From NCBI GenBank assembly GCA_041917295.1, contig JAYRXX010000006.1, positions 16,876-80,875 of the forward strand: DNA of 64,000 bases. The letters run 5' to 3'. Origin of the DNA: Elusimicrobiota bacterium. GTDB lineage: Bacteria; Elusimicrobiota; Elusimicrobia; FEN-1173. A program made the position numbers and the translations under genes. The notes under the pieces are model-generated. The model saw only the letters and a list, made by a program, of their open reading frames with translations. It was not told the origin of the DNA and searched no databases. Position 1 is the stretch's first letter. Every line of letters begins with the position of its first letter. Positions 37,300 to 60,000 of this stretch are shown piece by piece.

Positions 37300-37307
37300 A
37301 GGAGATC

Positions 37308-44519: not shown

Positions 44520-45962
44520 GTGAAACAGATCAGTCTGCGGACAAAATTGGTGGCGCACTCGACCCTGCTGGTGTTGGCGGCGGGGACCGGGGTGGGCGTG
44601 TCCCTTTATTTCGCCGAGCGGCAGTATCTGGTCCGCCGGTTCGACCAAACCCAGGAAGACAATGTCACCAGCCTCGTCCAAATCCGCCGCGAGTCGGTGA
44701 CCTCCAACAACGAACAACTGTTGCTCAGCTACCTGTCGTTGCTTCGTCGATCGCGGGCCCTCAGTTACGCCATGATCCAAGACACGACGGGCCGCGTGCT
44801 GTCGCACACAAACCCGGCGTTCGTGGGGCAACGCCTTTCCGACCCGCTGACGCTGGGGGCGCTGGAAACCGCCTCGTTGTTGCGCCAACGGGGCGGCTCC
44901 ACCGATGACGTGATCGACTTGGCGTTGCCCATCGTCCACGGCACCAAACGTTTGGGCGTTGCCCGGGTGGGATATTCCCGCGCCACCATGGCCCAGTTGG
45001 TGGACCAAACGTTGCAGGCGGCCCGACATCGAATTTTGATTGCCACCTTTTTGGCCATGGGGTTCGGCGTGGCGCTGGCGGTGGGATTGTCGTTGTTGTT
45101 TACGAAACCCATCGAGCTCTTGCGCGCGGGGGCCCGAATCATCGGGGAGGGCAACCTCACCCACCGCATTCAGATCACCACCCGCGACGAGTTGGGCGAC
45201 CTGGCCAAAGAGTTCAACGTGATGGCCGCCAAACTTCAAGAACTGGACCAACTGAAACAGGATTTCGTCTCCAACGTCACCCACGAACTGCGGTCGCCGT
45301 TGACGTCTCTGCGCGGGTATGTGGAACTGCTGTTGCGCGAAGGCGCCGGACCGATCAATGAAGAACAACGGGAATTTTTAATCGTCATTAAAAACAATTC
45401 CGTCCGATTGGCGCGGTTCATCGACAACCTGCTGGACGTGGCCAAAATCGAAGCGGGGAAAATCGAATTGCATCCCGAATTCATTCGACTTCAAGATTTG
45501 GCCTTGGAAATGTCGGTGGTTTTTCGGCCCATGGCCCAGGAAAAACGCATCGATTACCGGGTGGAAATGGACCCGCGCCTACGCCCGGTGCGGGCCGACG
45601 CCGACAAAATGCTGGAAGTGCTGACCAACTTGTTAAGCAACGCCTTCAAATTCACTCCCCCAGACGGAAAAGTCACGCTTTCGGCTGTTCCCGAAAACGC
45701 CCACGTTCACATAACGGTATCCGACACGGGCATTGGCATCCCAGCGGAATCCCAGTCCAGCGTGTTCAACAAATTCGAACAGGTGAAACCCACCCAAGGC
45801 CTGGCGCGGAAAACAAAAGGGTCCGGTTTGGGATTGACCATCGTCAAAGGCATTGTGGAAGCCCACGGCGGCCAGGTTTGGATCGAAAGCCAACCGGAAA
45901 AGGGAACCACCGTGCATGTGGTTTTGCCCCATTCCAGTGAGGAGGAGCCGGAGGAGGGATGA
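44520..45962 (+). CDS. Sensor histidine kinase (two TM, HAMP, HisKA, HATPase_c)
   Basis: DELGDLAKEFN (HAMP), THELRSPLT (H-box), NLLSNAFKF, DTGIGIP, GSGLGL. Confidence 0.95.
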   Translation: MKQISLRTKLVAHSTLLVLAAGTGVGVSLYFAERQYLVRRFDQTQEDNVTSLVQIRRESVTSNNEQLLLSYLSLLRRSRALSYAMIQDTTGRVLSHTNPAFVGQRLSDPLTLGALETASLLRQRGGSTDDVIDLALPIVHGTKRLGVARVGYSRATMAQLVDQTLQAARHRILIATFLAMGFGVALAVGLSLLFTKPIELLRAGARIIGEGNLTHRIQITTRDELGDLAKEFNVMAAKLQELDQLKQDFVSNVTHELRSPLTSLRGYVELLLREGAGPINEEQREFLIVIKNNSVRLARFIDNLLDVAKIEAGKIELHPEFIRLQDLALEMSVVFRPMAQEKRIDYRVEMDPRLRPVRADADKMLEVLTNLLSNAFKFTPPDGKVTLSAVPENAHVHITVSDTGIGIPAESQSSVFNKFEQVKPTQGLARKTKGSGLGLTIVKGIVEAHGGQVWIESQPEKGTTVHVVLPHSSEEEPEEG

Positions 45963-46065
45963 ATCATTGCGTCTCCCCATTTTTTTATTCTACGATTGTT
46001 TTGATTTTTTGCGGACTTCGGCAGGGCCACAGAGCGGAATTGGGAATCCATCGCGGAGGACACGT

Positions 46066-46746
46066 ATGCTAAAAAAACGGATCATGGTGGTCGACGACGA
46101 TCGAGACATTCGCCGTCTGGTGGAAAGCATTTTGGCCAAAGAAGGCTTTGTGACCATCGGCGCCGACAGCGGGGCGGACGCGCTCAAAAAAGTGGAAAAC
46201 TCCAAACCCGACTTGATCATATTGGACTTGCAACTGCCGGACAAAGACGGTTTTGAAGTCTGCAAAATTTTACGGTCCGACCCGACCACAAAAACGATTC
46301 CCGTGGTGTTTTTGACGGTGCAAAATTTGGATTCGTATAAAATCGCGGGGTTGGAAATGGGCGCCGACGATTACATCACCAAACCGTTCAACCAAACCGA
46401 ACTGGTGGCGCGGGTGAAAGCGGTTCTGCGCCGAGCCGAATGGCGCGACACCAAAGATTCGCCGGTCAAGGAAGGCCCCTTGAGCGTGGACATGGAAAAA
46501 CACACCGTGATCATGGACGGAAAATCCCTTAACCTGGCGCCCAAAGAGTTTGATTTGTTGCTGACGTTGATGCGCAACCAAGGCAAAGTGTTGACTCGGC
46601 CGGAACTTTCCGAATCGGTGTGGGGCCAAGAGTATTCCAACACCACCCGAACCGTGGATGTCCACGTGGGCCGACTGCGGCGCAAACTGGGAAAACACGG
46701 AGACCGGGTCCGAACCGTCGAACGGATCGGTTACCGCTTCGAGTAA
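46066..46746 (+). CDS. OmpR/PhoB-family response regulator
   Basis: MVVDDD, IILDLQLP, GADDYITKPF; winged helix with RTVDVHVGRLRRKL and TVERIGYRF; GGAGGA RBS before ATG 46066. Confidence 0.95.
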   Translation: MLKKRIMVVDDDRDIRRLVESILAKEGFVTIGADSGADALKKVENSKPDLIILDLQLPDKDGFEVCKILRSDPTTKTIPVVFLTVQNLDSYKIAGLEMGADDYITKPFNQTELVARVKAVLRRAEWRDTKDSPVKEGPLSVDMEKHTVIMDGKSLNLAPKEFDLLLTLMRNQGKVLTRPELSESVWGQEYSNTTRTVDVHVGRLRRKLGKHGDRVRTVERIGYRFE

Positions 46747-46847
46747 CCCCCGCTTTCCCCCCATCGTTTAACGCTCTTTGGCCGTCCTTGTGGCGCGTTT
46801 TAGGCCGAAATCCTCCCGTATTTTTTACCCCAAAGCAAAACCCGACA

Positions 46848-46879
46848 CGTCACTATTTGCGTTGACGCAAATAGTGACG
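46848..46879. repeat. Perfect 15-bp inverted repeat with 2-nt loop between convergent genes
   Basis: CGTCACTATTTGCGT-TG-ACGCAAATAGTGACG. Confidence 0.75.
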
Positions 46880-46914
46880 CCGCCATGTGGAACGTGTTCC
46901 CCCACGGACACGAA

Positions 46915-47295
46915 TCAAATCGGCCGTGTGTGGATGATGTTGTGAATGCTCTGCGCGAATGAAGAATAGCGGACGGGTTTGGCCATGGCGGCTTGGACAT
47001 CGATGGTTTGGAGTTTGCGTTCGTCGGCCCAGCCGGTGACGATCACCACGGGCGTGCCGTTGGTGGCCGGATGGCCGCGAAGTTGTTTTAAAACGTCATA
47101 CCCGTTGACAAAGGGCATTTCCAAATCCAAGGTGATCAAGTGGGGACGAAAATCGATGGCCGCGCGCAAGGCGTCCCGGGGGTCGGTGACACACCGCACT
47201 TCATATCCCATGGACTCGCAAAAGTCCCCCAACAAGTCGGCCATTCCGATATCGTCTTCAATCACCAAAATCCGGCGTGGATCGAGCATGATCAT
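46915..47295 (-). CDS. Single-domain response regulator (CheY-like receiver)
   Basis: ILVIEDD, LITLDLEMP, VVIVTG, MAKPV. Confidence 0.9.
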   Translation of the reverse strand: MIMLDPRRILVIEDDIGMADLLGDFCESMGYEVRCVTDPRDALRAAIDFRPHLITLDLEMPFVNGYDVLKQLRGHPATNGTPVVIVTGWADERKLQTIDVQAAMAKPVRYSSFAQSIHNIIHTRPI

Positions 47296-47370: not shown

Positions 47371-47450
47371 GCGTCTTTCGCCCCTTGCGAACCAATGAAG
47401 CACGATTCCCCCCCCCCCACATTAATTTAATTAACTATGTCCCATGCGAT

Positions 47451-47478
47451 TTTACAATTCCGTTACAAACTCTTAAGG
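47451..47478 (+). promoter_or_regulatory. Conserved upstream element of giant B: TTTACA-N5-GTTACA-N4-CTTAAGG
   Basis: Matches the giant A element; ends 36 nt upstream of ATG 47515. Confidence 0.7.
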
Positions 47479-47514
47479 GAATCTTTAGATTGGTTTGATA
47501 AAATTCCCGTCATT

Positions 47515-50500
47515 ATGAAGCTTTTCTTGCGGATGGTACGGCCTGGCCTTGGGGGGATGATATCGTTTTCTCTTCTGCTTACAGGCCCCCTCGCCCCCCT
47601 GGCCCAGGCCCGAACAGAAGAAAACAAAGCCAATTATTGGACAGCAAGGAAAAGCGTTGCCCGACAACGTTCTCTCCCCACCCAGCCAGTGAAGGCGCCC
47701 TTTCCAAATTCCCCGCACTTAAGAGGTTCCGAGCCGGTAAAGGAAACAAGCAAAAATTGGTTTGAAGTGGCCAGTTACACGCCCGTGTTCGGTCCAAGAT
47801 CCTGGAAGCGGGGCAACGTGCTGGTCCCGTTCGTGACGATCATCCAAGACGCCCACGATAATTACGAAGCCCAACTGGCTCTTAGCCGCACCCTGGCCGA
47901 ACTGGCCGACAAGGAAAAAGACGGCCCCCTCCTGGTGTGCGTCGAAGGCGCCTGGGGGCCCCTTTCCACCGAAATTTTCAAACCACTGGATCCAGAATTA
48001 CGCAAACAGAAAGCCGACCAATTACTTAAGCGTCACATTATCACCGGGGAAGAATTTTTATCAATAGTTCATCCAGGTTTAATTCAACTGGTGGGGGTAG
48101 ACGATCCCGATCTTCATAAAAAGAACACCGTGGCGCGGGAACTGGTGGAAACGCATCGATGGTCCACGACCGAACGAATGAAGATCCTCCAAATCAATAT
48201 GGAGCGATTAAAAAAGGCCGTTTACCCCCCCCGTATGCGATCGATTGATGAAATCAGACTGAAATACCAAACGGGGATATTGAACTCCCAAGAGTTTGCT
48301 AAAAAAATAGTCCCTTATGCCTCAAAAGAGTGGTGGCTAAAAAATTTCCCCCTTTTGTATCAACTCTCATCCCTCGACGCAGATGGTCTGGAAAAATCAC
48401 CAACCCGGGCGGAAATTGAAGAATGGGTGACAACCCTTTCAAACACCGATCTACAAAACAAGATTGATTGGTTGCTTCATCAAAAAAAAATAGACCTACC
48501 CGTCTTGGCCAATGAAATGGAAAAAGCACCGGACCAACTTTTACGGATGGACAAACGGTTTCAACTGTTGGTTGAACTTGATCAATGGATTTCCCTGGCT
48601 GACCGTCTTATTTCCCTCAAAATGACTCCGGAGGATTTGAACCAATTCGATCGGATCGAACCCAGTCAATCCATTGAAGACGTCGCAAACAAAATAAACA
48701 TTATCTCCCGAAAAAACAATGTTCGTGTTTTACCCCTCCCTCAAGCCCGTCGGCCCAATGAAGAAACGACGTGGCAAGCGGCCAAATCATTTTATCGGAT
48801 CGCCAAAAAGCGCGACAACGCCATGGCCACCAACACTCTGCGTCAAGCCAGAAAACATGACAAAAGGAAAGTCGTCCTTATTGCGGGAGGATTCCACACT
48901 CCTGGGATCTCGAGACTCTTTCGTCTCCAACAAAATTTCAACCATTCTCTGTGTCCGAAATTTTCATCGAGCGTAACAAAAGCCCCGCGGCCAACGCTCC
49001 GAAAAAAAAGTCTTTTTCAAAAGAGCATCCCTGAAAACAAACGCAAATTCCGTTTATCCCCAACCCTCACCCCGTTTTTCCGATTTATAGTCTTCATGTC
49101 GATCAGCTCCTTGGCCCTCGCGGCGGGCGGTGGGACCGGATCAGATTGGATTGAATATCTCGTTTTGGCATCCACCATCAGCGACCCCTTTTTAAGGCGT
49201 TTAATATCCCGAAAACCCATAGCCACACCTCCGGAAGAAATATTAATAAACAGTGACGCCGCTGTCGGCAAACTCAAAAATGACTTTTTGGCAATATACC
49301 GCTCTCAAAAGATCCCCGAAGCGATTAAGTTGCTGGACGAAGTTTCTTCTTACAGCGATTTAAGAGCCTATTTTTTATTATCTCTGTTAGAAAAAACTGA
49401 ACAACAAGCACTATTGGAATCAATGCCCCCAGCCTTGAAAAGAAGGGTTTTGAACGGTCTCCCGGACTACGAATATCACGCTTACATCAGAGGGATTGAA
49501 AAAACAATTCAGTGTATTTCTTCCCTTAAAGAAATGGATGATTTGTGGAAAAAGATAATCAGTGACGTGCGAGAGGGTAGTCCAAACAATAAAACTGTTT
49601 TAAGCTACTTAAATGCAATTACAGAAGCAAAAGAACGGGTGAGTATTATTCTTAACAAACTCGAATCACAAGTGGCCTCTCTTAAATCCATTGCAAGTGA
49701 CCCCGGTTCAATTCCCAAATTAATCCCTCCACAAGAAACAACCGATTTTATTTTAACCAGAGTAAATCCAGCGCTTAATACGAGAACCATTGCCCATGGG
49801 CATCTTTATTCAATCTTTTCTCATTTGGAGTACGCAGAAAAATGGTTGGGAACCAAATTGAGTCCGTTCGGAGGGATGGCCGCCTTTGGATTGGGTAGTT
49901 CGGGATATATTAACCGAACGCCACCCGCTCCAACGGCGCTGGAGTCTTCCGTTGCATCTTTACACCTTGCCAACGGAGCGAAAGAACGGTTAAGAGACGA
50001 ACTCTACTTTCTGAGGCACCCCGAAGCCACCTACCGGACTGTCCATCAAGACTGGGTGGAAACGATATCCAACGCAACCCGTCAAACAAAAATTAAGGAT
50101 TTAAAGGCACTTTCTCCCCGATCCAGAGATGATGATGAGATGGAAAGCGAGCGCTTAAAAAAAATTGAGTCCTTTTCCCACCGGATGGGAAATGGAGTCG
50201 AGGATCTTTCATTAAAGGCTCAAGCCTTTCTCGAAACGATTGAGGGGCCGCCTTGGAGTTTAACGCAATCCCATTATTTGGCTGAACTGGAGAGAGTCAG
50301 CGGCTATTTTGAGGGACCGGTTCTCGACCGACGAGCAACGGTTGTCCTTCCCAACCCATCCGACATTCAACTTTTTGCTTCGGATTTGGCGGTCCTCTAT
50401 CGTCATCAAGGCAAGGCAAAAAAACTCGTGATATTGGACATTGGTCGCATCCAAACAAGCCATCACGACCAATCCTCGATTGAAAATTTTTTGACCGCCT

Positions 50501-53500
50501 TACTGGCTGAAGCTAAGGAACGCGGGAATGTCATGATCCTTGTGGATATGGAGGGGGTCCAGGGGGAAGGGAATCGAACCTATTTGCACCTGATGGAACG
50601 ATGGAGGGTGGAAAATGATCAATCCCTGGCTCCGGACTTGATAATTTTGTCAAGCGAGCGAACATTCACATTTCACCTACAACAAGATGCACTCAAAAAG
50701 GCGGCTCCCACCTTCACCGTAACGATGAAGGATCCCGCCCGCTTAACCACGCGACGTTTGGACGCTTTTCAGGAACGGATTTCGGCTCAACTTGGGATTG
50801 TATTGGAACACCCGCTTGTTGAAGCCTGCGTCACACGATTATCAAGCTCCGACCGATTTGGAGTTGTAGACAGATCCATTAAGCTTTTAACAGACCTCGC
50901 TTTGAGGGTACAAAATGAGCGCCAGCCTGTGACCTCCCCCTCGCTCGAGGACTTATCAGGATCAGCCGACCTCTTTTCTGAGGAAACGGGTGAACTACCA
51001 CTTGAATTAAGAGCTGTCGCCAGATTGGATGTCATGCCCCCGGATTCCCAGATAACAGTGAAAAAAAAACTCGCCGAGCTCAGCAACCTACGAATAACAG
51101 ACCCAAACAGCGAACGGATAGCCGATATTGAACGTCTGATCGATACGATAATCAGTATTCCTTGGATTGAAATGGCCCCGCCCATTGTTTCCCGCGATGC
51201 CCCGAGGGAAATTCAAGACCAGCAAATAGAAGAACTTTACAACCGATTTGAAGAAAAATTGCGTCAAAGCCACACCGGTCTCGAAGAAAATGTCGTTCAG
51301 GCTCTGAAAGATTTACTTGGCTTAGTTATTCTTAGTGACATCGGCAGGGTCCCCCCCACCACCAATATTCCGACATTGGTGGGCCCTCCCGGGGTGGGCA
51401 AAACCGCGCTCATGCAACTGCTTGGGGAAGTTACAGGCCGCCCAGTGTATCGCATCTCAATGAATACGATACAAGATCCCATGAATCTTAAAGGCAGTTC
51501 TCCCACTTTTCTTCACGCGAAAGAAGGGCGCTTGGTCGCAGAGTTAATTGGGGGAGAACCACGGGTCGGGAATCCCATTTACTTCCTCGATGAGCTGGAC
51601 AAAACACCTCCAGCGGTACAAACAGTTTTTCTTGATGTCGGCCAAAGTTACTTGCGTGACAATTACGCCGGGATGGTCTTTGTTGGGAACAGTCTCTTTG
51701 TTGCCACAGCCAATCATCTCGAAAATGTAATTGCTCCGCTTAGAAACCGCATGGACATTATCCCCATGCCCGGATATACACTGAGGGGAAAAACGAACAT
51801 TGCAACTCGAAACACCCTTCCCCGGGCCTTGGCAAAAAACTTTTTAAGCGATGACCCCGGAAACGGACATCAAGAAGTCGCGTTCAATAATCGGCCGGCC
51901 GTCCTTCAATTCCTAGCTCAAGGCTACGCCCGAGAAGAAGGGATGCGACACATGATCAGACTCATCGACAATATCCTGATCGAAGCCTACGCTCTTTACA
52001 TTAAAACGGGCAGACCCACTCTCATTGATGAAAAATTCGTCCGATCTATTCTAGGGGCGCCGATCGAATTTCTGAGAATACCCAAACAAGACCCAGTCGG
52101 GAGAGCGTATTTTCCCCATCCTTCTGGGAATCTCATTGACACACACGCAATCCCAAAATCCACTATATCGCCTTTGGCGGGACGGTCGGCTTTTCTTGAA
52201 ATGACATTACCCGTTGAACTGTTGCTCAACGAACACGGCCCCGACTGGACAAAGAATATCTGTGCTCTATTTGATGGTAAGAGAGATTCAATCGCTCCGA
52301 TTTCCAATCTTCAAATTGACGTTCCGCGCGTGGTCCAGGAAGATGCGGCGGCACAACTGGCCATGGCGATCGCAACCCTTTCCAAGGCAACGGGGATTCC
52401 TGTAAAACGGGAAATGGCGTTTATCGGGGAAATGGACAACCGAGCCCGCGTTGTTGCCGCAACGAAACTTCGCCAACGAATCTTGGTTGCCTACGACGCC
52501 GGCGCACGTTGGCTGGCCATCCCTCACGGAAATAAGAACGAACTGATGACCAGCCTGTTTCCTGCGATGGAGGCCATCCGAGGTCCTATTTTGGAACCTC
52601 CCGTCAACGATGGCGAAGAATGGACAGTTTACAGGCCTCGGCAGGGGAATATCCCTTTTGTTGCCGATAAGGGGCCTCTTGAATCTGTTTTGGCGTTGGC
52701 GGAAGGAGAAATTTCAATGGCACCCTCGGAATGTATCTATGTATTAGTTCGTACCGTTGAAGACGGTTTTTCCTTGGCGTTTGCCAAACTGGGTCGGCAG
52801 TCTTTCAAGGAGAATCCCCCTTCACCAATTGACATTATCCCACCCCAGGAAAAAACAAAACCAGCGGTAAGTGAACTTACCCGTCCCTTTGAGAAATTTC
52901 CGGAGCTTCCCACCCGGGTTTTGGAGTGGAACATCAACGTTAATGGCCAGTTGGTTGACCTTCGTAATCTTTTTAGAAATGGCCTAACAGAGGAAGCTCT
53001 CTCGCTCATCCAAAATATTACTCAAACAATCGCATCAACGGGTTCACTGGATTCAATCGCACAACTTGAAGCCTGCGCGCGTTTTTCCATTGCCCAGAAC
53101 GACGGTGCCGCCTTTGTCGATTTCTTGTTAGGTCTTGACCCCACGACACGATGCCGTATCATCTCGGTTTTTTCCCCAGAAACCCTGGGGACTCTTGTCC
53201 ACCTCAAAGGGGCGTCAGGTTACCTAACAGAAACCGCGCGATGGGAAGCGAATTTAATAAAAATTCAGTCCACCCTGGCATCGATAAAAAATAATTCCGT
53301 TCAGCGGAAAGACGTTATCGAAATTCAAGATATGTTAAGCGTGCCGGGCGCTTTCCCCCCCTTGTTTAGAGAAGGCGGCAGTTATTATACGATCGTAGGC
53401 CTAAGAGCGGCGATCGATAATTATCTTTATCGGGAAGGTGGAATAGACGATATGAAGGCCCATATGGAGGAATGCTTAGAAATAGGAATTTCTTGCCTCA

Positions 53501-56500
53501 ATAAATACAGAACAGTCCTGTCATACAATGCAAACCCGACAGGCCTTCTTGCTGTAAAAAATGCCATGGACCAAGCCTTGACCGAACTAGCTGTTTTTCG
53601 ACCACTGTTTTTAAGCCCCGATGAACTTGGGGGTCAAGATCCGGAAGGAAGTTGGCAAGTATACATGGCCAACGAACACCTGCGCCAAGAAACACTGAGA
53701 GGATCTTGCCGGTTTATCCCCTTAGAAGATCTTCCAGCCAGCGCAGGAATAGATTCCCCTGAAAGCAACGTCTGGCATGCCCTTTTCGGGGTCCCATTTG
53801 AACGATTTGTTGAAGTATCAAACCGGGATAATCATAAGGTGATGGTATTGACAGGTTGCCCCCCGCTCCTTCGAAACGCTTGGGCTTCCTATTTGAATCG
53901 GAACCTTTGGAAAGTGGGATTGCCTCAGCGAATAATAAAAATTGACGTTTCAAAATTATTGGAGAGCAATTATCGATCAGGAGAATCGACCGAATCAAAG
54001 TGGCCGCGATTGAAAAAAACTCTTGAGGCCGCGCGAGATTCGGGAAATATGGTGGTATGGATCGACTTGGACTTTCTTCCTCCCTCCGCCCCGCCGTTTC
54101 TTATTTCGCGGATTATGCGGTTATTCAATCAAGGTTCTGGGCAAGCGTCTGTCATTTTTACCGGAGAAGAATTCGTGCACCAAAACCTTGTCAATTCCTC
54201 ACCCGTGTACGCCGGGGGGGTGACCCACCTATCAATCGGTGAAGAAAACCGGGAAAACCTTCTTCGATTGGAAATAATTGAGCGGGAAAAAATAACGAAA
54301 GTCCAATACCCCGCTCCCGTCGTAGAGCATCTCTGCGAAAAAGTGCGATCCGGATCCGTTAGTCTCTCTCTTGCGCGAAGAATTCTAGACCGAGCCCACT
54401 CTCCTTCGGGCGAACCCCTAACTCCGGCTCTCATTGATTCAACACAAAAGGGGATCGATCTGGAAAATGATCAAATGCTTCAGTGGGCAACTTTGTGGGA
54501 ACAGTTTGAGTTCATATCTGGAAAGATGCCTAAATCAGCTCGCAAGCGGGCAATGACCCTCTTTGGCCAATTCCGAAAAGCGTCAGGGGACGAAGCGGCG
54601 GCCCTTGAGAATCAAATTAGAATTATTATCGAATTCCCCTGGGAAAAAAGAGCTCCCTCACCTATTCCCCGCCTGCCGCCAAATCCCCAACCTGAGGATT
54701 ATAAAAATCTTGAATCGATCATTGCGGGACAGATCAACACTGTAAGAGAGGAACTTGATCGATCCCATCATGGAATGGATCGGGTTAAAGAGCTGATCAT
54801 CAATTACGTACTGAGGGATTCGCTTGCACGCGCGCACACTGGGAAAGGAGTTGGGAAACCTCTCTTGGTCGTGTCCCACCCAGGACAGGGGAAAACCACC
54901 CTTGCTGAGTCTGTTGCCCGGGCATTAGGGCGACCATTCATATTCATTCCCCTGGGTGCGGTAAAACACACCGAAGAGCTCACAGGGTTCGCTTCCCAGT
55001 ACGTCAATTCTGACGCCGGGTTGCTGATAAAAGGAATGATAAGAGCAGGCGCATTGAACCCGGTCATGCTATTAGACGAAATTGACAAAATGGGTGGGGG
55101 CGAAACGAGTCCAATAGATTCGATTCTTTCCCTCACTGATCCCGAACAAAATGAAAAATTTCGGGACGAATATCCCCAAGTCGATTTTCCAATGGACGAA
55201 CCATTGTATTTTGCAACCGCGAACGATATTGAAAAATTACCTGGACCCGTCAGAGACCGATTTGAGATTATAGTTCTTCCCCCTTACACGCAACAGGAGA
55301 AATCAGCCATCCTGGTTGATAAAGCCCTGCCTGAACTCATGGAAAAATGGGAAACCAACGATCGCGTGACAGTGACGAATGCCTTCCCCATCGCGCAAAT
55401 CATCCTATCGATCGTCCAGGAACACGGGGTGCGACTTGCCAAGGCAAAGATGTCCACGCTGATTTTGAGATCGCTCATAGAATCCCACTTAACGCGCACC
55501 CCCATCGAAATAACGGAAGCTGTCGCTCGAAGACTATTAAGGATATCGGAACCCCCACCATCCGCCGAAATCGTCTCCGCCCGTGTTGGAGAAATTAACG
55601 GCCTTGTCTACAACGAGGCCACCGGGGAGGGCGCGGTACTGGGAATTCATGCCAACTTACACAATTTGGGGGGAGACGAACCCTTCCGATACGTGGGAAT
55701 TGGACGCCTCGGCCCATCAATGAAAGCAAGCCTTGATCGCGCGGTCGCCCTTGCCCAAGTCCGTGCTCAAACGATGATCCCTTCCCTCAACCTCAATGGA
55801 AAAGTTCTGACCGTTTTGGTCACCAAACAAGACGTTCAAAAGGACGGAGACTCAGCCGGTGTGGGCTTTTATTTCGTGGCGCTCTCCGCATTGACGGGAG
55901 TTCCGGTAAGCCAAGACATTGCCCTTACGGGAGCGATCTCCCCATCGGAAGGAGCGATGCAAGTTGGCGCCATCGAGGCAAAAGTATCTGCGGCAATTAA
56001 CGCAGGAGTGAAATACATTTTCATTCCAACCGAAAACAGGGATGTGGTTGACGGAATCGTTCGCAGCAATGGGACAAACATAACGCTCGTTGAAGACCTG
56101 ACCGAAACTAGCTTCCCCTTCACCCTGCGCATTCCCAGACTGTTGTGGAGTCCAGGCCTTGAACTCCGCGCACAGGCGAATCTTGAATCTTCGGTTGAAC
56201 AGGTGGGAATGGCCAAGAATCAGATTTCGTTTGAAAAAGGAGTGGCTGTCATCCGATGTTCCGCTAGTCAATTGAAAGATTTCTCTAAATCGAACAAACA
56301 CTATTCAGAACCACCCACATTGGTCCTCTATCCTGATGCAAATTTAATCGAAGACCGCGTGCTTACCAAAAACAGTCCCAGGGGGACTGACATCAACATG
56401 CGGGATCTTCGAAATGGGTTTATCACGCCCCAGTTCTCCATCCTTCTATTCTTCTTCACTGCCCTGGCCATCGGGCTCCCGATTGGGTTCGAAATCAGCC

Positions 56501-56991
56501 ACTTTATACATTGGGCAAGCACCCACATTTGGTACGTCATCTCGGCCGTCCCTGTTCTAATATTGTCATTTTTCACCCCCATAATCATTTCGCGAATCAT
56601 TAGTCGAAGAATCCCCCCCGCTTCAGGCCCATTAATAGAGGCAAACGGAACCATCCGATTTACGGATATTACAGCGTGGGAAGTAATGGTTGATTTAAAC
56701 AGCCTGGCGAGAAAAAAAGCAGACAATGAGATCCTACGAGTTATTGAAACAGCCATCTCCCAAATTGAGGCCACTCGTTTACTCAACACAAAGGACCCGA
56801 TTTGGAATAAATTATACCCGCATTTAAAACATGGGCCTGCGTCTTATTCCAGGCGCAACCTCATCGCCCTGCTGGAGCAAGCAAACCCCGAACTTAGTCA
56901 AATCGAGATTATTCCACCAAACACAGATCACGTTCAAAGTGTGATCTCACAATTTCTTAACACACAACACGCCAGATTGATTCAAACATAA
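47515..56991 (+). CDS. Giant B: about 3158-aa membrane-anchored protein with a TIKI/TraB-like N-module and two tandem (Clp-like pseudo-AAA + Lon AAA+ + Lon protease) units
   Basis: Signal-like MKLFLRM...LAPLAQA; Walker A GPPGVGKT (51382) and SHPGQGKT (54874); Walker B FLDELDK and LLDEIDK; KDGDSAG (Ser 55852) and GAIEAK (Lys 55981); start moved from 47437 to 47515 on signal-peptide and upstream-element evidence. Confidence 0.9.
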   Translation: MKLFLRMVRPGLGGMISFSLLLTGPLAPLAQARTEENKANYWTARKSVARQRSLPTQPVKAPFPNSPHLRGSEPVKETSKNWFEVASYTPVFGPRSWKRGNVLVPFVTIIQDAHDNYEAQLALSRTLAELADKEKDGPLLVCVEGAWGPLSTEIFKPLDPELRKQKADQLLKRHIITGEEFLSIVHPGLIQLVGVDDPDLHKKNTVARELVETHRWSTTERMKILQINMERLKKAVYPPRMRSIDEIRLKYQTGILNSQEFAKKIVPYASKEWWLKNFPLLYQLSSLDADGLEKSPTRAEIEEWVTTLSNTDLQNKIDWLLHQKKIDLPVLANEMEKAPDQLLRMDKRFQLLVELDQWISLADRLISLKMTPEDLNQFDRIEPSQSIEDVANKINIISRKNNVRVLPLPQARRPNEETTWQAAKSFYRIAKKRDNAMATNTLRQARKHDKRKVVLIAGGFHTPGISRLFRLQQNFNHSLCPKFSSSVTKAPRPTLRKKSLFQKSIPENKRKFRLSPTLTPFFRFIVFMSISSLALAAGGGTGSDWIEYLVLASTISDPFLRRLISRKPIATPPEEILINSDAAVGKLKNDFLAIYRSQKIPEAIKLLDEVSSYSDLRAYFLLSLLEKTEQQALLESMPPALKRRVLNGLPDYEYHAYIRGIEKTIQCISSLKEMDDLWKKIISDVREGSPNNKTVLSYLNAITEAKERVSIILNKLESQVASLKSIASDPGSIPKLIPPQETTDFILTRVNPALNTRTIAHGHLYSIFSHLEYAEKWLGTKLSPFGGMAAFGLGSSGYINRTPPAPTALESSVASLHLANGAKERLRDELYFLRHPEATYRTVHQDWVETISNATRQTKIKDLKALSPRSRDDDEMESERLKKIESFSHRMGNGVEDLSLKAQAFLETIEGPPWSLTQSHYLAELERVSGYFEGPVLDRRATVVLPNPSDIQLFASDLAVLYRHQGKAKKLVILDIGRIQTSHHDQSSIENFLTALLAEAKERGNVMILVDMEGVQGEGNRTYLHLMERWRVENDQSLAPDLIILSSERTFTFHLQQDALKKAAPTFTVTMKDPARLTTRRLDAFQERISAQLGIVLEHPLVEACVTRLSSSDRFGVVDRSIKLLTDLALRVQNERQPVTSPSLEDLSGSADLFSEETGELPLELRAVARLDVMPPDSQITVKKKLAELSNLRITDPNSERIADIERLIDTIISIPWIEMAPPIVSRDAPREIQDQQIEELYNRFEEKLRQSHTGLEENVVQALKDLLGLVILSDIGRVPPTTNIPTLVGPPGVGKTALMQLLGEVTGRPVYRISMNTIQDPMNLKGSSPTFLHAKEGRLVAELIGGEPRVGNPIYFLDELDKTPPAVQTVFLDVGQSYLRDNYAGMVFVGNSLFVATANHLENVIAPLRNRMDIIPMPGYTLRGKTNIATRNTLPRALAKNFLSDDPGNGHQEVAFNNRPAVLQFLAQGYAREEGMRHMIRLIDNILIEAYALYIKTGRPTLIDEKFVRSILGAPIEFLRIPKQDPVGRAYFPHPSGNLIDTHAIPKSTISPLAGRSAFLEMTLPVELLLNEHGPDWTKNICALFDGKRDSIAPISNLQIDVPRVVQEDAAAQLAMAIATLSKATGIPVKREMAFIGEMDNRARVVAATKLRQRILVAYDAGARWLAIPHGNKNELMTSLFPAMEAIRGPILEPPVNDGEEWTVYRPRQGNIPFVADKGPLESVLALAEGEISMAPSECIYVLVRTVEDGFSLAFAKLGRQSFKENPPSPIDIIPPQEKTKPAVSELTRPFEKFPELPTRVLEWNINVNGQLVDLRNLFRNGLTEEALSLIQNITQTIASTGSLDSIAQLEACARFSIAQNDGAAFVDFLLGLDPTTRCRIISVFSPETLGTLVHLKGASGYLTETARWEANLIKIQSTLASIKNNSVQRKDVIEIQDMLSVPGAFPPLFREGGSYYTIVGLRAAIDNYLYREGGIDDMKAHMEECLEIGISCLNKYRTVLSYNANPTGLLAVKNAMDQALTELAVFRPLFLSPDELGGQDPEGSWQVYMANEHLRQETLRGSCRFIPLEDLPASAGIDSPESNVWHALFGVPFERFVEVSNRDNHKVMVLTGCPPLLRNAWASYLNRNLWKVGLPQRIIKIDVSKLLESNYRSGESTESKWPRLKKTLEAARDSGNMVVWIDLDFLPPSAPPFLISRIMRLFNQGSGQASVIFTGEEFVHQNLVNSSPVYAGGVTHLSIGEENRENLLRLEIIEREKITKVQYPAPVVEHLCEKVRSGSVSLSLARRILDRAHSPSGEPLTPALIDSTQKGIDLENDQMLQWATLWEQFEFISGKMPKSARKRAMTLFGQFRKASGDEAAALENQIRIIIEFPWEKRAPSPIPRLPPNPQPEDYKNLESIIAGQINTVREELDRSHHGMDRVKELIINYVLRDSLARAHTGKGVGKPLLVVSHPGQGKTTLAESVARALGRPFIFIPLGAVKHTEELTGFASQYVNSDAGLLIKGMIRAGALNPVMLLDEIDKMGGGETSPIDSILSLTDPEQNEKFRDEYPQVDFPMDEPLYFATANDIEKLPGPVRDRFEIIVLPPYTQQEKSAILVDKALPELMEKWETNDRVTVTNAFPIAQIILSIVQEHGVRLAKAKMSTLILRSLIESHLTRTPIEITEAVARRLLRISEPPPSAEIVSARVGEINGLVYNEATGEGAVLGIHANLHNLGGDEPFRYVGIGRLGPSMKASLDRAVALAQVRAQTMIPSLNLNGKVLTVLVTKQDVQKDGDSAGVGFYFVALSALTGVPVSQDIALTGAISPSEGAMQVGAIEAKVSAAINAGVKYIFIPTENRDVVDGIVRSNGTNITLVEDLTETSFPFTLRIPRLLWSPGLELRAQANLESSVEQVGMAKNQISFEKGVAVIRCSASQLKDFSKSNKHYSEPPTLVLYPDANLIEDRVLTKNSPRGTDINMRDLRNGFITPQFSILLFFFTALAIGLPIGFEISHFIHWASTHIWYVISAVPVLILSFFTPIIISRIISRRIPPASGPLIEANGTIRFTDITAWEVMVDLNSLARKKADNEILRVIETAISQIEATRLLNTKDPIWNKLYPHLKHGPASYSRRNLIALLEQANPELSQIEIIPPNTDHVQSVISQFLNTQHARLIQT

Positions 56992-57012: not shown

Positions 57013-60000
57013 TTAGGCATCCGATCCGATCCGTTTCATGGCTTTCAGGTGATTGTGGATCTCTTCAATCGGCAAGCGCAGGCCCAGGGTGAGCACGTCT
57101 TTGCCCAGTTTTTCCCACGTGGCTTTGTCTTGCAACACCGTCGTGTCCGCCGGGGTCGCGCCGATCATCTCCGGGATCAACGACGTCAACACATTGAACC
57201 GAATCACCCCGCCTTTCACCGCCCCGCGGCGATCCAACAGATCTTTCTCACCGAACACAATGGACCCATTGGCCGCGCCTTTGGCCAACGCCCCGCGAAC
57301 CTTTAGCATATCGTCTACCGACAAACCGTTGTTCACCACCAGAATCTTCAATGTTGATAACTGAGCGTCGTCCAACCGGGACGCCGCAAGAGCCCTCAGT
57401 TTCTGGACCGCATCCTCGTCCACCCGACCAGTGGAGATCAGGTCCGTCGCCGCCACCAGCACCAGCGACGTCTGCGACTGTCGAATCGCTTCATTCATCA
57501 GCGCCTTTTCCATTCGGCCCTGGTAGAGCTGGCCCATCCAGTATTCGCTGTTCGTCAACCGCGCATACCGTTCCCCCATCACCGTCACAATCGAATAGCT
57601 CAACCACGCCCGCCGCGCCATCGCCGGCGTCAGTTCCTCAATTTCTCGCAACAGCCCCAACAAGCTCAGATCCGCCAATTCGTTCGGCATCGAAGAACTG
57701 ATTCGGTATTGAACCACCATCTCAGACGCACCGCCCGTCACTCCGTACCGAGCCAAAGTGGGGATATGTCCCACTTCGTGCACCAACCGGGCCATCACAT
57801 CTCCCGCTTCCCCGTTGCGCACGTGGACCACATACCCCTCTTCGTTCGCCACCACAAACGCGTTCGTGTGCGACTCCGTGTTCCTGTGCCCCTCGGCCGC
57901 CAAAATCCGCTCAAAACTTACAGAATTTTCATGCAACACCACCCTCACCGGCGGCATACCCAAGGGAGACATTTTCAATTTCTTTTCTGATTCCAGCATC
58001 TTTTTCAACATCCCTTCCGCCGCCTCTTGCGCCTGAGCCTGTGTTAACCGCGCCCCAACAGCACCGGTCACTCCCAGAAGGCGATACACCCGTTCCGGCA
58101 ACACACCCGTCTCTTTCTCCAGCTCAGCAATCCGTTTCTCCAGGCTCGCCAACAATTCTCCTTCACGCGTCGGCACACCCATCTGCTCAAGATACCGCGC
58201 CAGCCGCGCCTCCGCCAGAATCTCCATTAACATCGGGTCCATCGCCTGTAGTTCCGGCGCCAACTGATGCATAAACTCCACCGTTCGTTGACGCAGTTGC
58301 CCCTCCCAACTCAACCGGCTTGCGCGCCCACTTCGAACCGCCCGGTTTGCCGCCTCTATCATTTCGTTCATCTGCTTCACGGTCAACCCCAACGTCTTCC
58401 AGTCCGCGTCCTCCGGCAACACAGCCGACAACGCCAACGCGTTGGCCACCGACGTGTTCAAGATCGGGTTCCCTTCCGCTTCCATCCCAAGGAACCCTTC
58501 CATGTCACGTCCTTGTTCAACCGCCTCCCGCACAATTTCCCCCACCGTCCTCGTCGCGATCAGTTTCAACCCATCCCGCGTCACCTGCGCTTCTTGAACT
58601 AACCCGTTGGGCATGACTCGAAACGCCACAACCCTCTTCCCCGACGCGTCCGAAATAAGCTGGAATTCAGGATCCCCCATCGCTCCAGGAACACGCTGTT
58701 GTCTATTAATGAACTGGATAAACGCCGCCATGTCCGCAACCGAACTATTCACTCGGTTTCCATCCAATTCCAAGTTCTCATGAATGTGCAACGTCGGGCC
58801 GGTAACAGCAGGAACCTGAACACCCCCGCTGACCGTCACCTGCCCAGCCACAACCGCAGGCTGACCATTCTCTCCAAACACCGCCACCTGGTTCGATCCC
58901 AATTGGCTCGCGAATCCTGGGTTCGCCGCAATCCACGCCGCGGCCGCCACTGCCCGCGCTGCCGCACGACCGGGCACTCTTGAACCCAATGTCGTTATCC
59001 CCGATTGTTCACCGATTTCCTTATTTAATACCACAGCACGAACCAACTCTTGCCCAACCATTTTGCCTGTTTCCACAAACCATCCTTTCGGCAAACTCCC
59101 CATGTTATAAACCATGTGGGCCACAGTCGTCACGATTGTCCCCACCACAGGCCCCGCCACCACGGAGGAAGCCAAAATCAATCCAACTCCAGCCCCAAAC
59201 AACCCAAACCGCTTGCCGAACTCTTGCGCGTCTTGAACCAATGCCCCCCGATCGAAAACGGCCGACCACCCGCCTCGACCTCGATCCGGGTTCAATTGCC
59301 CGTATCGCCCATGCCATTCCGCGAAAGTATGGGCCAGAGCAAAACCCAATCCCACCAAAACCCCCACCTCCCCCAACCCGGCCAAACTCGACAGGTCACC
59401 TGCAAACACCATTTCCTTTGCTCCCCACAACCACGTTTCCAAGAACATCAGCCCTTCAACGATCGGGCTCACAACCGCAACAACCCCCAAATATCCCAAC
59501 CGTTGCCCAAGGGAACCCTCTTTCCAATCCCGCAAATAAGCTTCAAACACAGACGCGACCGATCTCGCTCCGCTCGCCGTCGCACCCGCGTTTCGCTCGC
59601 TGGCTTCGGGACCCTTGGGTTCATCTGGTGATCTAGGATTTGATACTTCTCCTGTCCCGGAGTTCGGTGGAGCCTCCCCCTTTGCCAGCCTCTGAATCAT
59701 ATTCCAAATAGAATTGGTAGCTCCTGGTCCTTCCTGACGCAACAGATTATCAATCTCTTTAGGATAACCGGCATTATCGGTCAAATCAAACATGCTCCCA
59801 GTCAGCCTATATGGCGGATCCCCAAAGACACCGCCCCTCTTCTGGTAATTAAATGGAACTTGGTCATTATTGCCAAAAGAAACATTGATCCCCGGCCTTT
59901 TTTCTCCCTGGGTCAGGCCTGCGCCGGAGAAACTCCACCCATCACCAGCTCGATCGTGCCATCCCCATCCCTCTTCCGGCCTTTCCGTTCCTCCACTCAA

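What the first reader, a model, noticed from the sequence alone, without database searches (positions are those of the whole stretch)
52321..52560. First Lon protease domain is a pseudo-protease: both dyad residues replaced while the ATPase motifs are intact
Seen: the KDGPSAG motif reads QEDAAAQ (Ser to Ala1638, 52348-52350) and GGLKEK reads TKLRQR (Lys to Arg1681, 52477-52479), keeping the 43-residue spacing. Flanking sequence (LSKATGIPVKREMAFIGEM...AYDAGARWLAIPHGNK) still aligns with Lon_C. Unit 1 has the canonical Walker A GPPGVGKT; the protease-intact unit 2 has a variant SHPGQGKT. Inference: division of labour, with unit 1 as unfoldase or scaffold and unit 2 as peptidase, giving alternating active and inactive sites in a ring.
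Basis: partly seen in the sequence, partly recalled or inferred. Interest (0 to 1): 0.72.

Follow-up and report, generated by a model that had tools for sequence, protein, structure and literature searches.

The report
Tandem Lon protein with dead protease
A 3,184-residue membrane-tethered bacterial protein carries two Lon protease units, and the first has lost its cutting residues yet stays strongly conserved; every known full-length relative likewise has exactly one live and one dead protease unit.

Summary
In the ORF at 47437..56991 (+), unit 1 has Ala1638 and Arg1681 where E. coli Lon has Ser679 and Lys722, 43 residues apart. Unit 2 keeps Ser2806 and Lys2849. A third active-site residue, Thr704, is also lost in unit 1 (Ile1663).

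The region is still a Lon protease domain. It passes Pfam's Lon_C threshold, and an AlphaFold model (pLDDT 82) matches solved Lon P domains.

This is not recent decay:
- All 12 relatives that carry this unit lack the Ser, and all have Arg at the Lys position.
- The dead core is as conserved as the live one (68 vs 68%, 54 vs 54%; dN/dS about 0.155 for both).
- All 12 full-length two-unit homologues have exactly one live and one dead protease. The dead one is unit 1 in nine and unit 2 in three.
- One homologue pairs a protease-dead unit that keeps its ATP-binding motifs with an ATPase-dead, protease-live unit.

Both ATPase modules in the window protein keep every motif.

Division of labour is therefore supported. 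The proposed ring of alternating active and inactive sites is untested. The family is very rare (about 15 proteins, two named Elusimicrobia) and I found no description of it. I rate it a new variant of a known kind.

The parts
47437..56991 (+). Whole gene: a 3,184-aa membrane-tethered protein with two Lon units (stop codon included).
   Evidence: ORF list and translation. The identical protein is found on a second public contig. Full-length orthologues are 62-34% identical.
47437..47607 (+). N-terminal signal-peptide-like segment (aa 1-57, ...LAPLAQA|R).
   Evidence: Read from the sequence and a Kyte-Doolittle scan. This is an inference; no dedicated predictor was run.
47608..49065 (+). Conserved N-terminal 'head' domain (aa 58-543), probably outside the cytoplasm. 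Motifs: IQDAH, VEGAWG, RDxAM, GGFHTPG.
   Evidence: All 63 proteins share it at the same position. Invariant residues are listed. The Pfam ChaN/Tiki match is weak and below threshold (22.6 vs 27.7 bits). The AF2 model has pLDDT 80 but no PDB fold match.
49066..49131 (+). Transmembrane helix 1 (aa 544-565).
   Evidence: Kyte-Doolittle window-19 score of at least 1.6.
50314..50916 (+). Degenerate Clp-D1-like AAA domain of unit 1 (aa about 960-1160). The Walker A position reads VVLPNPSD and the Walker B position reads ILVDMEG.
   Evidence: It aligns with the equivalent region of unit 2. A profile of both regions hits the ClpC/ClpB D1 domain in PDB (E 4e-5, ClpC residues 187-279).
51055..52056 (+). 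Unit 1 LonA-type helical region plus AAA+ module (aa 1207-1540). Walker A 51382-51405, pore-loop Phe1358 within 51499-51516, Walker B 51583-51603, sensor-1 Asn within 51700-51717, Arg finger within 51739-51756, sensor-2 Arg within 51934-51951.
   Evidence: PDB phmmer alignment to E. coli Lon residues 267-560. Pfam AAA match. Motif columns; coordinates.
52057..52566 (+). Unit 1 pseudo-protease domain with a Lon P fold (aa 1541-1710). Ala1638 (52348-52350) replaces Ser679, Ile1663 (52423-52425) replaces Thr704, and Arg1681 (52477-52479) replaces Lys722. Arg1679 and Arg1681 are invariant among the eight aligned dead unit-1 domains.
   Evidence: AF2 model with pLDDT 81.9 and 92-93 around both sites. 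Foldseek top hits are Lon P domains. Conservation and dN/dS.
52567..52836 (+). Small alpha/beta extension after the unit 1 P domain (aa 1711-1800), with an invariant RGP motif (aa 1715-1717).
   Evidence: Invariant columns R178, G179 and P180. Secondary structure.
53824..54396 (+). Degenerate Clp-D1-like AAA domain of unit 2 (aa about 2130-2320). The Walker A position reads VLTGCPPL and the Walker B position reads VWIDLDF.
54574..55506 (+). Unit 2 AAA+ module (aa 2380-2690). Walker A SHPGQGKT 54874-54897, Walker B 55069-55089, with sensor-1, Arg finger and sensor-2 all intact.
   Evidence: PDB phmmer E 1e-60 to B. subtilis LonA 3m6a. Pfam AAA at 98 bits. Motif table.
55507..56076 (+). Unit 2 protease domain with an intact active site (aa 2691-2880): Ser2806 (55852-55854), Thr2831 (55927-55929), Lys2849 (55981-55983).
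   Evidence: Pfam Lon_C at 97.6 bits..
56428..56604 (+). Two C-terminal transmembrane helices (aa 2998-3021 and 3031-3056).
   Evidence: Kyte-Doolittle scan.
56605..56988 (+). C-terminal tail ending ...RLIQT. It is conserved among the closest orthologues.
   Evidence: jackhmmer search with the C-terminus. All 11 full-length head-carrying family members end in Q[TSA].
46915..47295 (-). Divergently transcribed single-domain response regulator of about 124 aa. It is a conserved neighbour.
   Evidence: Pfam Response_reg. It sits in the same position next to the orthologues in L001, L005 and L006/L007.
44520..46746 (+). Upstream two-component system: an sCache-HAMP-HisKA histidine kinase (44520-45962) and an OmpR-type response regulator (about 46084-46746).
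   Evidence: Pfam. Gene calls and synteny.
57013..64000 (-). 3' part of a convergent giant gene (8,211 aa on the public contig), cut by the window end. It is a conserved neighbour and contains a conserved HEVGH motif.
   Evidence: One search gives the 8,211-aa length. One search shows the frame stays open to the window end. It is orthologous to the neighbours of P0002 (78% identity) and P0008 (46% over the last 860 aa).

Best explanation
The gene encodes a membrane-tethered protein with two Lon-type AAA+ units. Each repeat unit has four parts: a degenerate Clp-D1-like AAA domain, a LonA-type AAA+ motor, a Lon P domain and a small extension.

In unit 1 the P domain is a folded pseudo-protease kept by selection. 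It has lost Ser679, Thr704 and Lys722 and cannot act as a Ser-Lys peptidase. Its ATPase keeps every catalytic motif.

Peptide-bond cleavage is confined to unit 2. The two units work as parts of one machine. Unit 1 supplies ATP-driven unfolding or translocation together with a non-catalytic P-domain ring. That ring acts as an assembly scaffold, a pass-through chamber or an allosteric partner, as the dyad-less Lon-like domains of RadA, ComM and BrxL do. Unit 2 degrades.

Shown: loss of the catalytic residues, retention of the fold (by prediction), purifying selection, intact ATPase motifs, and the rule of one live and one dead protease across the family.

Inferred: the scaffold or allosteric role, the physical coupling of the two units, and membrane topology with both units in the cytoplasm.

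Not determined: whether the units form stacked rings, one mixed ring or separate rings, and what the substrate is.
For: 1. Catalytic residues are lost in unit 1 and kept in unit 2.
2. The domain is still Lon-like. Pfam Lon_C scores 36.4 bits against a 21.1-bit cutoff. The AF2 model has pLDDT 81.9 and pTM 0.81. Foldseek's best matches are the E. coli Lon P domain and LonA hexamers at probability 1.00, and also the dyad-less BrxL and RadA domains.
3. The loss is ancient and fixed. The 12 dead unit-1 domains have A, V, T, D or I at the Ser position and Arg at the Lys position in 12 of 12. Arg1679 and Arg1681 are invariant in the eight aligned.
4. Selection is purifying. Identity of the dead core versus the live protease to four orthologues is 68.2/67.9, 54.1/53.5, 52.9/50.3 and 43.5/43.4%, all above the whole-protein averages. 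dN/dS is 0.155 for both.
5. All 12 full-length two-unit homologues have exactly one live and one dead P domain. The dead one is unit 1 in nine and unit 2 in three.
6. P0011 has a unit 1 with Walker A/B present and a dead protease, and a unit 2 with Walker A, Walker B, sensor-1 and sensor-2 destroyed and a live protease. If that protein is an ATP-dependent protease, its units must cooperate.
7. Walker A Lys, Walker B Asp-Glu, sensor-1 Asn, the Arg finger, sensor-2 Arg and an aromatic pore-loop residue are intact in unit 1 of 10 of the 11 family members with an alignable unit-1 ATPase module. P0011 lacks the Arg finger.
8. Published precedent: the Lon-like domains of RadA and ComM are needed for oligomerisation (PMC11612176). 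BrxL's C-terminal domain lacks the protease motif and mediates assembly (PMC10164562).
Against: - There are no biochemical data. Inactivity is inferred from residue identity alone.
- No model coordinates were available, so a substitute nucleophile in the pocket cannot be excluded structurally. P0007 has Thr at the Ser position, and P0004 has Ser on both sides of it.
- dS between the orthologues is 1.35-1.43, near saturation, so the dN/dS values are approximate.
- Coupling of the two units rests largely on one homologue, P0011. Its unit 1 also lacks the Arg finger, so its ATPase competence is uncertain.
- Unit 2 of the window protein keeps a complete ATPase of its own. It would not strictly need unit 1, so the units could act independently.
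- Topology comes from a simple hydropathy scan only.
Confidence: 0.6

Rival explanations
1. Three chains form one pseudo-hexameric Lon ring in which unit 1 and unit 2 alternate, giving three active and three inactive proteolytic sites.
For: - The dead domain can be in either unit, as long as exactly one is dead. That is what a mixed ring predicts, because position in the chain would then not matter.
- Lon active sites lie at protomer interfaces, and activation needs contacts with the neighbouring P domain (PMC7239648). A dead neighbour could therefore still be structurally required.
- Single-chain multi-AAA rings exist, for example dynein and midasin (from my own knowledge).
Against: - No oligomer information of any kind was obtained.
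- Each unit carries its own Clp-D1-like tier in front of its Lon AAA+ module. The units are separated by about 580 residues. This looks like two self-contained stacks.
- Tandem AAA+ proteins of the Clp, NSF and p97 type form stacked rings (from my own knowledge).
- The either-position pattern is explained equally well by two rings.
Confidence: 0.15
2. The two units are functionally independent. Unit 2 is a complete Lon protease. Unit 1 is an ATP-driven unfoldase, chaperone or remodeller that no longer feeds any protease, and the two merely share a membrane anchor.
For: - Unit 2 of the window protein keeps every ATPase and protease motif, so it is self-sufficient on paper.
- Unit 1 keeps all ATPase motifs.
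- Lon has reported proteolysis-independent chaperone-like activity (from my own knowledge).
Against: - The strict one-live-one-dead rule in 12 of 12 homologues is hard to explain without cooperation.
- So is the complementary inactivation of the two units of P0011.
- The tandem arrangement persists across proteins only 25-29% identical.
Confidence: 0.18
3. The unit 1 domain is still an enzyme. It uses other residues, such as a different nucleophile or the invariant Arg pair, for proteolysis or a new reaction.
For: - Arg1679 and Arg1681, Glu1659 and Asp1628 are invariant in the eight aligned dead unit-1 domains.
- P0007 has Thr at the Ser position, and P0004 has flanking Ser residues.
Against: - The residue at the nucleophile position varies freely: A, V, T, D, I.
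- Thr704 and the Gly residues flanking the Ser are lost as well.
- No Ser, Thr or Cys near the site is conserved across the family.
- Arg is a poor general base.
Confidence: 0.05
4. The substitutions reflect recent neutral decay of a redundant duplicate, or a sequencing or assembly artefact.
For: None beyond the bare substitutions. The Pfam score of unit 1 (36 bits) is much lower than that of unit 2 (98 bits).
Against: - The ORF is uninterrupted, and the identical protein is seen in a second assembly.
- The loss is shared by orthologues down to about 29% identity.
- The dead core is as conserved as the live one, with dN/dS about 0.155.
- The fold is predicted with confidence.
Confidence: 0.02

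Closest known systems
LonA (endopeptidase La, MEROPS S16; E. coli Lon, B. subtilis LonA)
   Same: Both units align to LonA across the C-terminal part of the LonA helical region, the AAA+ module and the P domain (E 1e-33 and 1e-60). Unit 2 keeps Ser, Thr and Lys and all ATPase motifs.
   Different: - There are two units in one chain.
- No LonA N-terminal substrate-binding domain was found by Pfam.
- The score is below the NCBIfam 'lon' cutoff (377 vs 608 bits).
- A degenerate Clp-D1-like domain precedes each unit.
- The protein is anchored in the membrane at both ends.
- Unit 1 lacks the dyad.
Dyad-less Lon-like domains of RadA/Sms, ComM and BrxL
   Same: These have a Lon P fold without the Ser-Lys dyad and serve as a ring-forming or assembly scaffold next to a hexameric ATPase. 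BrxL and RadA domains appear among the Foldseek hits to the unit 1 model. The PADLOC BrxL and Pfam ChlI models touch aa 1634-1705.
   Different: Those domains partner RecA-like or MCM-like DNA motors and act on DNA. Here the partner is a bona fide LonA-type AAA+ module, and a live Lon protease sits in the same chain. The match to BrxL covers only 72 of 680 profile positions.
Catalytically dead paralogues inside AAA+ or self-compartmentalised protease complexes (FtsHi, ClpR, inactive proteasome beta subunits), recalled from my own knowledge
   Same: After duplication, one copy loses its catalytic residues but is retained under selection and is thought to work together with the active copy.
   Different: Those are separate polypeptides from other protease families (M41, S14, T1). 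Here the live and dead copies are fused in one chain and belong to the Lon family. Co-assembly has not been shown here.
LonC (for example Meiothermus taiwanensis LonC / TTC1975 peptidase)
   Same: A Lon relative in which one of the two activities has degenerated. TTC1975-type chains appear among the PDB hits to unit 2.
   Different: In LonC the ATPase is degenerate and the protease is active (from my own knowledge). That is the reverse of unit 1 here, and LonC is a single unit. It resembles unit 2 of homologue P0011 more than anything in the window protein.
Type II (two-tier) AAA+ proteins ClpA/ClpB/ClpC
   Same: A D1-like AAA domain sits upstream of a second AAA+ module. A profile of the D1-like regions hits the ClpC/ClpB D1 domain (E 4e-5).
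   Different: The D1-like domain here has no P-loop Lys and no Walker B Glu. The second tier is Lon-type with a fused protease.

Membership tests
LonA protease (MEROPS S16 / TIGR00763) | Ser-Lys catalytic dyad in the C-terminal P domain (E. coli S679 and K722) | tested here: not met
   Unit 1 has Ala1638 and Arg1681 at the aligned positions. Unit 2 meets this feature with Ser2806 and Lys2849.
LonA protease (MEROPS S16 / TIGR00763) | AAA+ module with Walker A, Walker B, sensor-1, Arg finger and sensor-2 | tested here: met
   Both units have K, D-E, N, R and R at the E. coli K362, D423/E424, N473, R484 and R542 columns.
LonA protease (MEROPS S16 / TIGR00763) | N-terminal LON substrate-binding domain | tested here: not met
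   No such Pfam match anywhere in the 3,184 aa at E up to 0.1-1. The region upstream of each AAA+ module is instead a Clp-D1-like degenerate AAA domain.
LonA protease (MEROPS S16 / TIGR00763) | Score above the curated equivalog cutoff | tested here: not met
   TIGR00763 scores 377 bits against a 608-bit cutoff. NF008053 scores 315 against 891.
LonA protease (MEROPS S16 / TIGR00763) | ATP-dependent processive proteolysis | not testable with these tools
   This needs biochemistry.
Non-catalytic Lon-like scaffold domains (RadA/Sms, ComM, BrxL) | Lon P-domain fold lacking the catalytic dyad | tested here: met
   AF2 model with pLDDT 81.9. Foldseek probability 1.00 to Lon P domains, the BrxL C-terminal domain (TM 0.62-0.64 normalised by target length) and the RadA P domain. 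Dyad absent.
Non-catalytic Lon-like scaffold domains (RadA/Sms, ComM, BrxL) | Attached to a RecA-like or MCM-like DNA-translocating ATPase | tested here: not met
   The attached ATPase aligns to the LonA AAA+ module. TIGR00416 (RadA) and TIGR02653 (BrxL) match only aa 1635-1705.
Non-catalytic Lon-like scaffold domains (RadA/Sms, ComM, BrxL) | Forms the hexameric ring that holds the motor together | not testable with these tools
   No multimer prediction or experiment was available.
Pseudo-protease partner of an active paralogue (concept: FtsHi, ClpR) | Catalytic residues lost, but the domain is kept under purifying selection | tested here: met
Pseudo-protease partner of an active paralogue (concept: FtsHi, ClpR) | Physically co-assembles with the active paralogue | not testable with these tools
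   The evidence is only indirect: fusion in one chain, the one-live-one-dead rule, and the complementary inactivation in P0011.
Clp/Hsp100 type II AAA+ | D1 module with a functional P-loop | tested here: not met
   The profile hits ClpC D1 (E 4e-5), but GEPGVGKT is replaced by LPNPSD or LTGCPPLL, and Walker B DE by DM or DL.
BREX BrxL defence protein | Full-length match to the BrxL model | tested here: not met
   PADLOC BrxL scores 33.5 bits over profile positions 581-652 of 680 only.

The most novel reading that the evidence does not exclude
The tandem Lon protein is a dedicated processing or quality-control machine for the giant (8-16 thousand residue) protein encoded convergently next to it. 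That pairing is conserved among relatives down to 29% identity. On this reading the dead P-domain ring is an obligate non-cutting chamber or half-site partner. It is either a pass-through tier that lets very long substrates be threaded intact to the live ring, or the inactive half of a natural 3+3 Lon hetero-ring. The fixed Lys-to-Arg change would lock the active-site loop in an OFF-like state through the conserved acidic residues at the D676/G677 positions.
Probability: 0.12. Interest if true: 0.85.

Novelty: new variant of a known kind. Interest (0 to 1): 0.62.

Why it matters
Lon is one of the best-studied AAA+ proteases and is regarded as a homo-oligomer of identical units that each carry both activities.

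This family is a natural experiment. Two Lon units are fused in one chain, and evolution has repeatedly kept exactly one proteolytic site per chain while keeping both P-domain folds. In one member the ATPase and protease activities are split between the units.

That speaks directly to three questions:
- What a Lon P-domain ring contributes beyond catalysis, such as assembly, allostery or chamber geometry.
- How many active sites a Lon ring needs.
- How the dyad-less Lon-like scaffolds of RadA, ComM and BrxL could have arisen.

The Clp-D1-like dead domain in front of each Lon motor may also bear on the proposed LonA-ClpB relationship.

The family is tiny and confined to uncultivated bacteria with giant genes, so its practical reach is limited until a member is expressed.

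Tried and rejected
- **GTDB genome scans.** The scan with the whole protein found no relative. A tighter alignment (A4) found a single locus, the Elusimicrobia MAG that carries P0006. The window organism itself remains unnamed.
- **PDB sequence searches** with the N-terminal head and both inter-unit regions gave nothing at E up to 1. Only a profile of the two inter-unit regions reached ClpC/ClpB D1.
- **Foldseek on the N-terminal head model** gave no match (best E 0.045). The Tiki/ChaN assignment therefore stays a weak lead.
- **P0120**, a hit in the exhaustive profile search, is an unrelated leucine-rich-repeat protein. I discarded it.
- **Neighbour-joining trees of the units** have no bootstrap. 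They group the unit 1 and unit 2 copies of the core clade separately, which suggests one old duplication. The placement of P0009-P0012 is unreliable, so I do not claim whether dead unit 2 domains arose independently or by rearrangement.
- **A defence-system reading** (BrxL, IetA) was rejected because the matches cover single domains only.
- **Literature searches** for tandem or duplicated Lon and for Lon in giant Omnitrophota proteins found no description of this family.
- **Recent-decay and artefact readings** were rejected.
Full report
**Observation.** The window holds an uninterrupted 3,184-codon ORF at 47437..56991 on the + strand. Codon 52348-52350 is Ala1638, inside QEDAAAQ. Codon 52477-52479 is Arg1681, inside TKLRQR. 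They are 43 residues apart.

phmmer against all PDB chains aligns residues 1207-1703 to E. coli Lon (6u5z) across the AAA+ and protease domains (E 1e-33). It places Ala1638 on position 679 and Arg1681 on Lys722. A MAFFT alignment with 27 related units gives the same register.

The second unit (aa 2380-2900; E 1e-60 to B. subtilis LonA) reads KDGDSAG...IEAK, with Ser2806 and Lys2849 at the same spacing.

One detail is new. The Thr704 equivalent is Ile1663 in unit 1 and Thr2831 in unit 2. From my own knowledge of the E. coli Lon P-domain structure work, Thr704 helps position Lys722. The identical protein is on an independently assembled public contig.

**Is it still a Lon protease domain?** Pfam Lon_C matches aa 1634-1703 at 36.4 bits, above the 21.1-bit cutoff, but only over the C-terminal third of the model. 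An AlphaFold2 model of aa 1538-1800, built on a 22-sequence alignment, has pLDDT 81.9 and pTM 0.81, with block means of 92-93 around both former dyad positions.

Foldseek against the PDB returns the E. coli Lon proteolytic domain first (E 2.6e-7, probability 1.00, TM 0.58 normalised by target length). LonA hexamers follow, and so do the dyad-less Lon-like domains of BrxL and RadA. The whole P fold appears to be kept, not just a remnant.

**Recent decay or a fixed state?** A search of 5.8 billion protein clusters found full-length relatives at 62, 47, 39 and 34% identity, several more distant ones, and two truncated ones. An exhaustive profile search of 1.84 billion representatives with the dead domain found only 12 proteins at E up to 1e-10. 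It added P0064, P0065 and P0066. The family is very rare.

In the 12 homologous dead unit-1 domains the Ser position holds A, V, A, A, V, A, T, D, D, A, I and A, and the Lys position holds Arg every time. Arg1679 and Arg1681 are invariant in the eight aligned. Thr704 is replaced in every dead domain and kept in every live one.

I obtained the DNA of two orthologues and compared regions. The dead core (aa 1626-1710) is 68.2, 54.1, 52.9 and 43.5% identical to four orthologues. The live unit 2 protease is 67.9, 53.5, 50.3 and 43.4% identical. The whole-protein values are 62.1, 47.1, 40.7 and 35.9%. Nei-Gojobori dN/dS against the closest orthologue is 0.155 for both domains.

dS is 1.35-1.43, so those ratios are approximate. 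The picture of purifying selection is nonetheless clear.

**A family rule.** Every one of the 12 full-length homologues has two Lon units, and exactly one has the Ser, Thr and Lys set.
- The dead domain is unit 1 in nine: the window protein, P0002-5, P0008, P0011, P0065 and P0066.
- It is unit 2 in three: P0009 keeps the Ser but has lost Thr and Lys, P0010 has Ser to Arg, and P0012 has Ser to Glu.
- The three partial sequences also show a dead unit 1.

In nearly all members both ATPase modules keep the Walker A Lys, Walker B Asp-Glu, sensor-1 Asn, Arg finger, sensor-2 Arg and an aromatic pore-loop residue.

The exception is instructive. In P0011, unit 2 has lost Walker A (TDLNEDVR), Walker B (HN), sensor-1 and sensor-2 but keeps the protease site. 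Its unit 1 keeps Walker A and B but has a dead protease. It also lacks the Arg finger. If P0011 is an ATP-dependent protease at all, its units must work together. This is the best available evidence that the units form one machine.

Unbootstrapped neighbour-joining trees group the unit 1 and unit 2 copies of the core clade separately. That fits a single old duplication followed by one inactivation in that clade. Deeper relationships are not reliable.

**Anatomy of the whole protein.**
- A hydropathy scan suggests a signal-like N-terminus, one membrane helix at aa 544-565 and two at aa 2998-3056. Both Lon units would then lie in the cytoplasm, tethered at both ends. This is an inference.
- The roughly 200 residues upstream of each Lon module align with each other. 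As a profile they hit the D1 AAA+ domain of ClpC/ClpB (E 4e-5), but with the P-loop and the Walker B Glu replaced.
- The repeat is therefore a dead Clp-D1-like domain, a LonA helical region and AAA+ module, a Lon P domain, and a small extension with an invariant RGP motif.
- The LonA N-terminal domain is absent, and the protein scores below the NCBIfam Lon cutoffs. It works like a Lon but is not a canonical LonA.

**Mechanism.** The best-supported reading has three parts.
- Unit 1 is a working motor with a non-catalytic P-domain ring.
- Unit 2 does the cutting.
- Both belong to one membrane-tethered machine.

Precedents for a dyad-less Lon fold acting as a ring or assembly scaffold are RadA and ComM (PMC11612176) and BrxL (PMC10164562).

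The invariant Arg at the Lys722 position sits alongside acidic residues that recur at the D676/G677 positions in all 12 dead unit-1 domains. In real Lon, D676 hydrogen-bonds K722 in the autoinhibited OFF state (PMC7239648). A permanent Arg-acid pair locking that loop is an attractive inference, but it is untested.

The fact that the dead domain can sit in either unit fits a mixed ring but does not exclude the others. The self-contained three-tier layout of each unit leans towards stacks.

**Context.** The window is ordinary bacterial chromosome. It carries ProRS, Dxr, a P-type ATPase, a nuo operon, NadA, MoaE and sulfur-carrier genes.

The tandem-Lon gene has conserved neighbours in the window and in three other loci (L001, L005, L006/L007). 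Upstream lie a two-component system and a divergent 124-aa response regulator. Downstream, where the contig allows a view, lies a convergent giant gene (8,211 aa here, up to 16,480 aa elsewhere) that is orthologous between loci.

Two family members are named as Elusimicrobia bacterium MAG proteins, and the one GTDB locus found is such a MAG. The window organism itself was not identified.

**Comparison and novelty.** The concept is known in two forms: a catalytically dead paralogue kept beside an active one, and a dyad-less Lon fold used as a scaffold. What I found no description of is this combination:
- two LonA-type units fused in one chain;
- a strict one-live-one-dead protease rule;
- a preceding dead Clp-D1-like tier in each unit;
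- a position inside a membrane-tethered protein of more than 3,000 residues.

I rate it a new variant of a known kind, of moderate to high interest to AAA+ protease specialists.

Noticed in passing
window 50314-50916 and 53824-54396 (+): Each Lon unit is preceded by a Clp-D1-like AAA domain whose P-loop and Walker B Glu are replaced. That makes four AAA-like domains per chain, two of them dead. It may bear on the proposed evolutionary link between LonA's inserted helical domain and ClpB D1 (that link is from my own knowledge).
   Followed up: partly
window 57013-64000 (-); L001:19742-28462; L006:11683-19246: A convergent giant gene is a conserved, orthologous neighbour of the tandem-Lon gene. 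It is 8,211 aa on the public contig of this organism and 12,587 to 16,480 aa next to P0008. Identity is 78% to the P0002 neighbour and 46% over the last 860 aa to the P0008 neighbour. It contains a conserved HExGH motif (LVHEVGHIPTLAR). The gene runs off the window end.
   Followed up: partly
window 44520-47295: An sCache-HAMP histidine kinase, an OmpR-type regulator and a divergent 124-aa single-domain response regulator lie directly upstream. The small regulator keeps this position in the window and three other loci (L001, L005, L006/L007), which suggests the tandem-Lon gene is under two-component control.
   Followed up: partly
window 47608-49065 (+); also window 26988-32627 (-): The N-terminal head domain (motifs IQDAH, VEGAWG, RDxAM, GGFHTPG) is shared at the same position by all 63 large proteins. 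Most of these carry quite different enzymes, including phosphomannomutase, SecA, enolase, PGK and transaldolase, in Omnitrophota, Elusimicrobia and other bacteria. The 1,879-aa ORF at 26988-32627 in this window has the same head (E 2e-13) plus an HEIGH motif. The fold is unassigned: the Pfam ChaN/Tiki match is below threshold and there is no PDB fold match.
   Followed up: partly
P0011 (3,889 aa homologue), units at aa 1565-2076 and 2837-3331: The two units are inactivated in complementary ways. Unit 1 has Walker A/B present, a dead protease and no Arg finger. Unit 2 has Walker A, Walker B, sensor-1 and sensor-2 destroyed and a live protease.
   Followed up: yes
P0009 aa 1-175 compared with window 47437-47961: The first 175 residues or so of homologue P0009 are about 95% identical to the window protein. 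Similarity then drops abruptly to background, and the rest of P0009 is only a distant relative with its dead protease in unit 2. This is either recombination between paralogous giant genes that share the head domain, or an assembly chimera.
   Followed up: no
window 56974-56988 (+) and the C-termini of P0002-P0005, P0008-P0012 and P0066: All 11 full-length head-carrying family members end in ...[I/L/A/T]-Q-[T/S/A]-COOH. Other head-domain giants have different recurring endings, such as ...KVMWSV. This may be a C-terminal recognition or sorting signal.
   Followed up: no
window 52567-52836 (+): An insertion of about 55 residues follows the Lon P core. It begins with an invariant RGP motif and is predicted as a small beta/alpha unit. 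It is present after most P domains of the family, live or dead, and absent from canonical Lon.
   Followed up: no
window 33132-38666 (-): A Prok-JAB domain is fused to a nitrite/sulfite reductase (743 aa). Next to it lie a PALP enzyme, an IS200-like Y1 transposase ORF and a ThiF-rhodanese protein. This looks like a sulfur-carrier-protein cysteine or thiocarboxylate pathway with an unusual JAB-reductase fusion.
   Followed up: no
L001:8147-9828: In the closest orthologous locus an AbiEi/AbiEii toxin-antitoxin pair is inserted between the small response regulator and the tandem-Lon gene. It is absent from the window.
   Followed up: no
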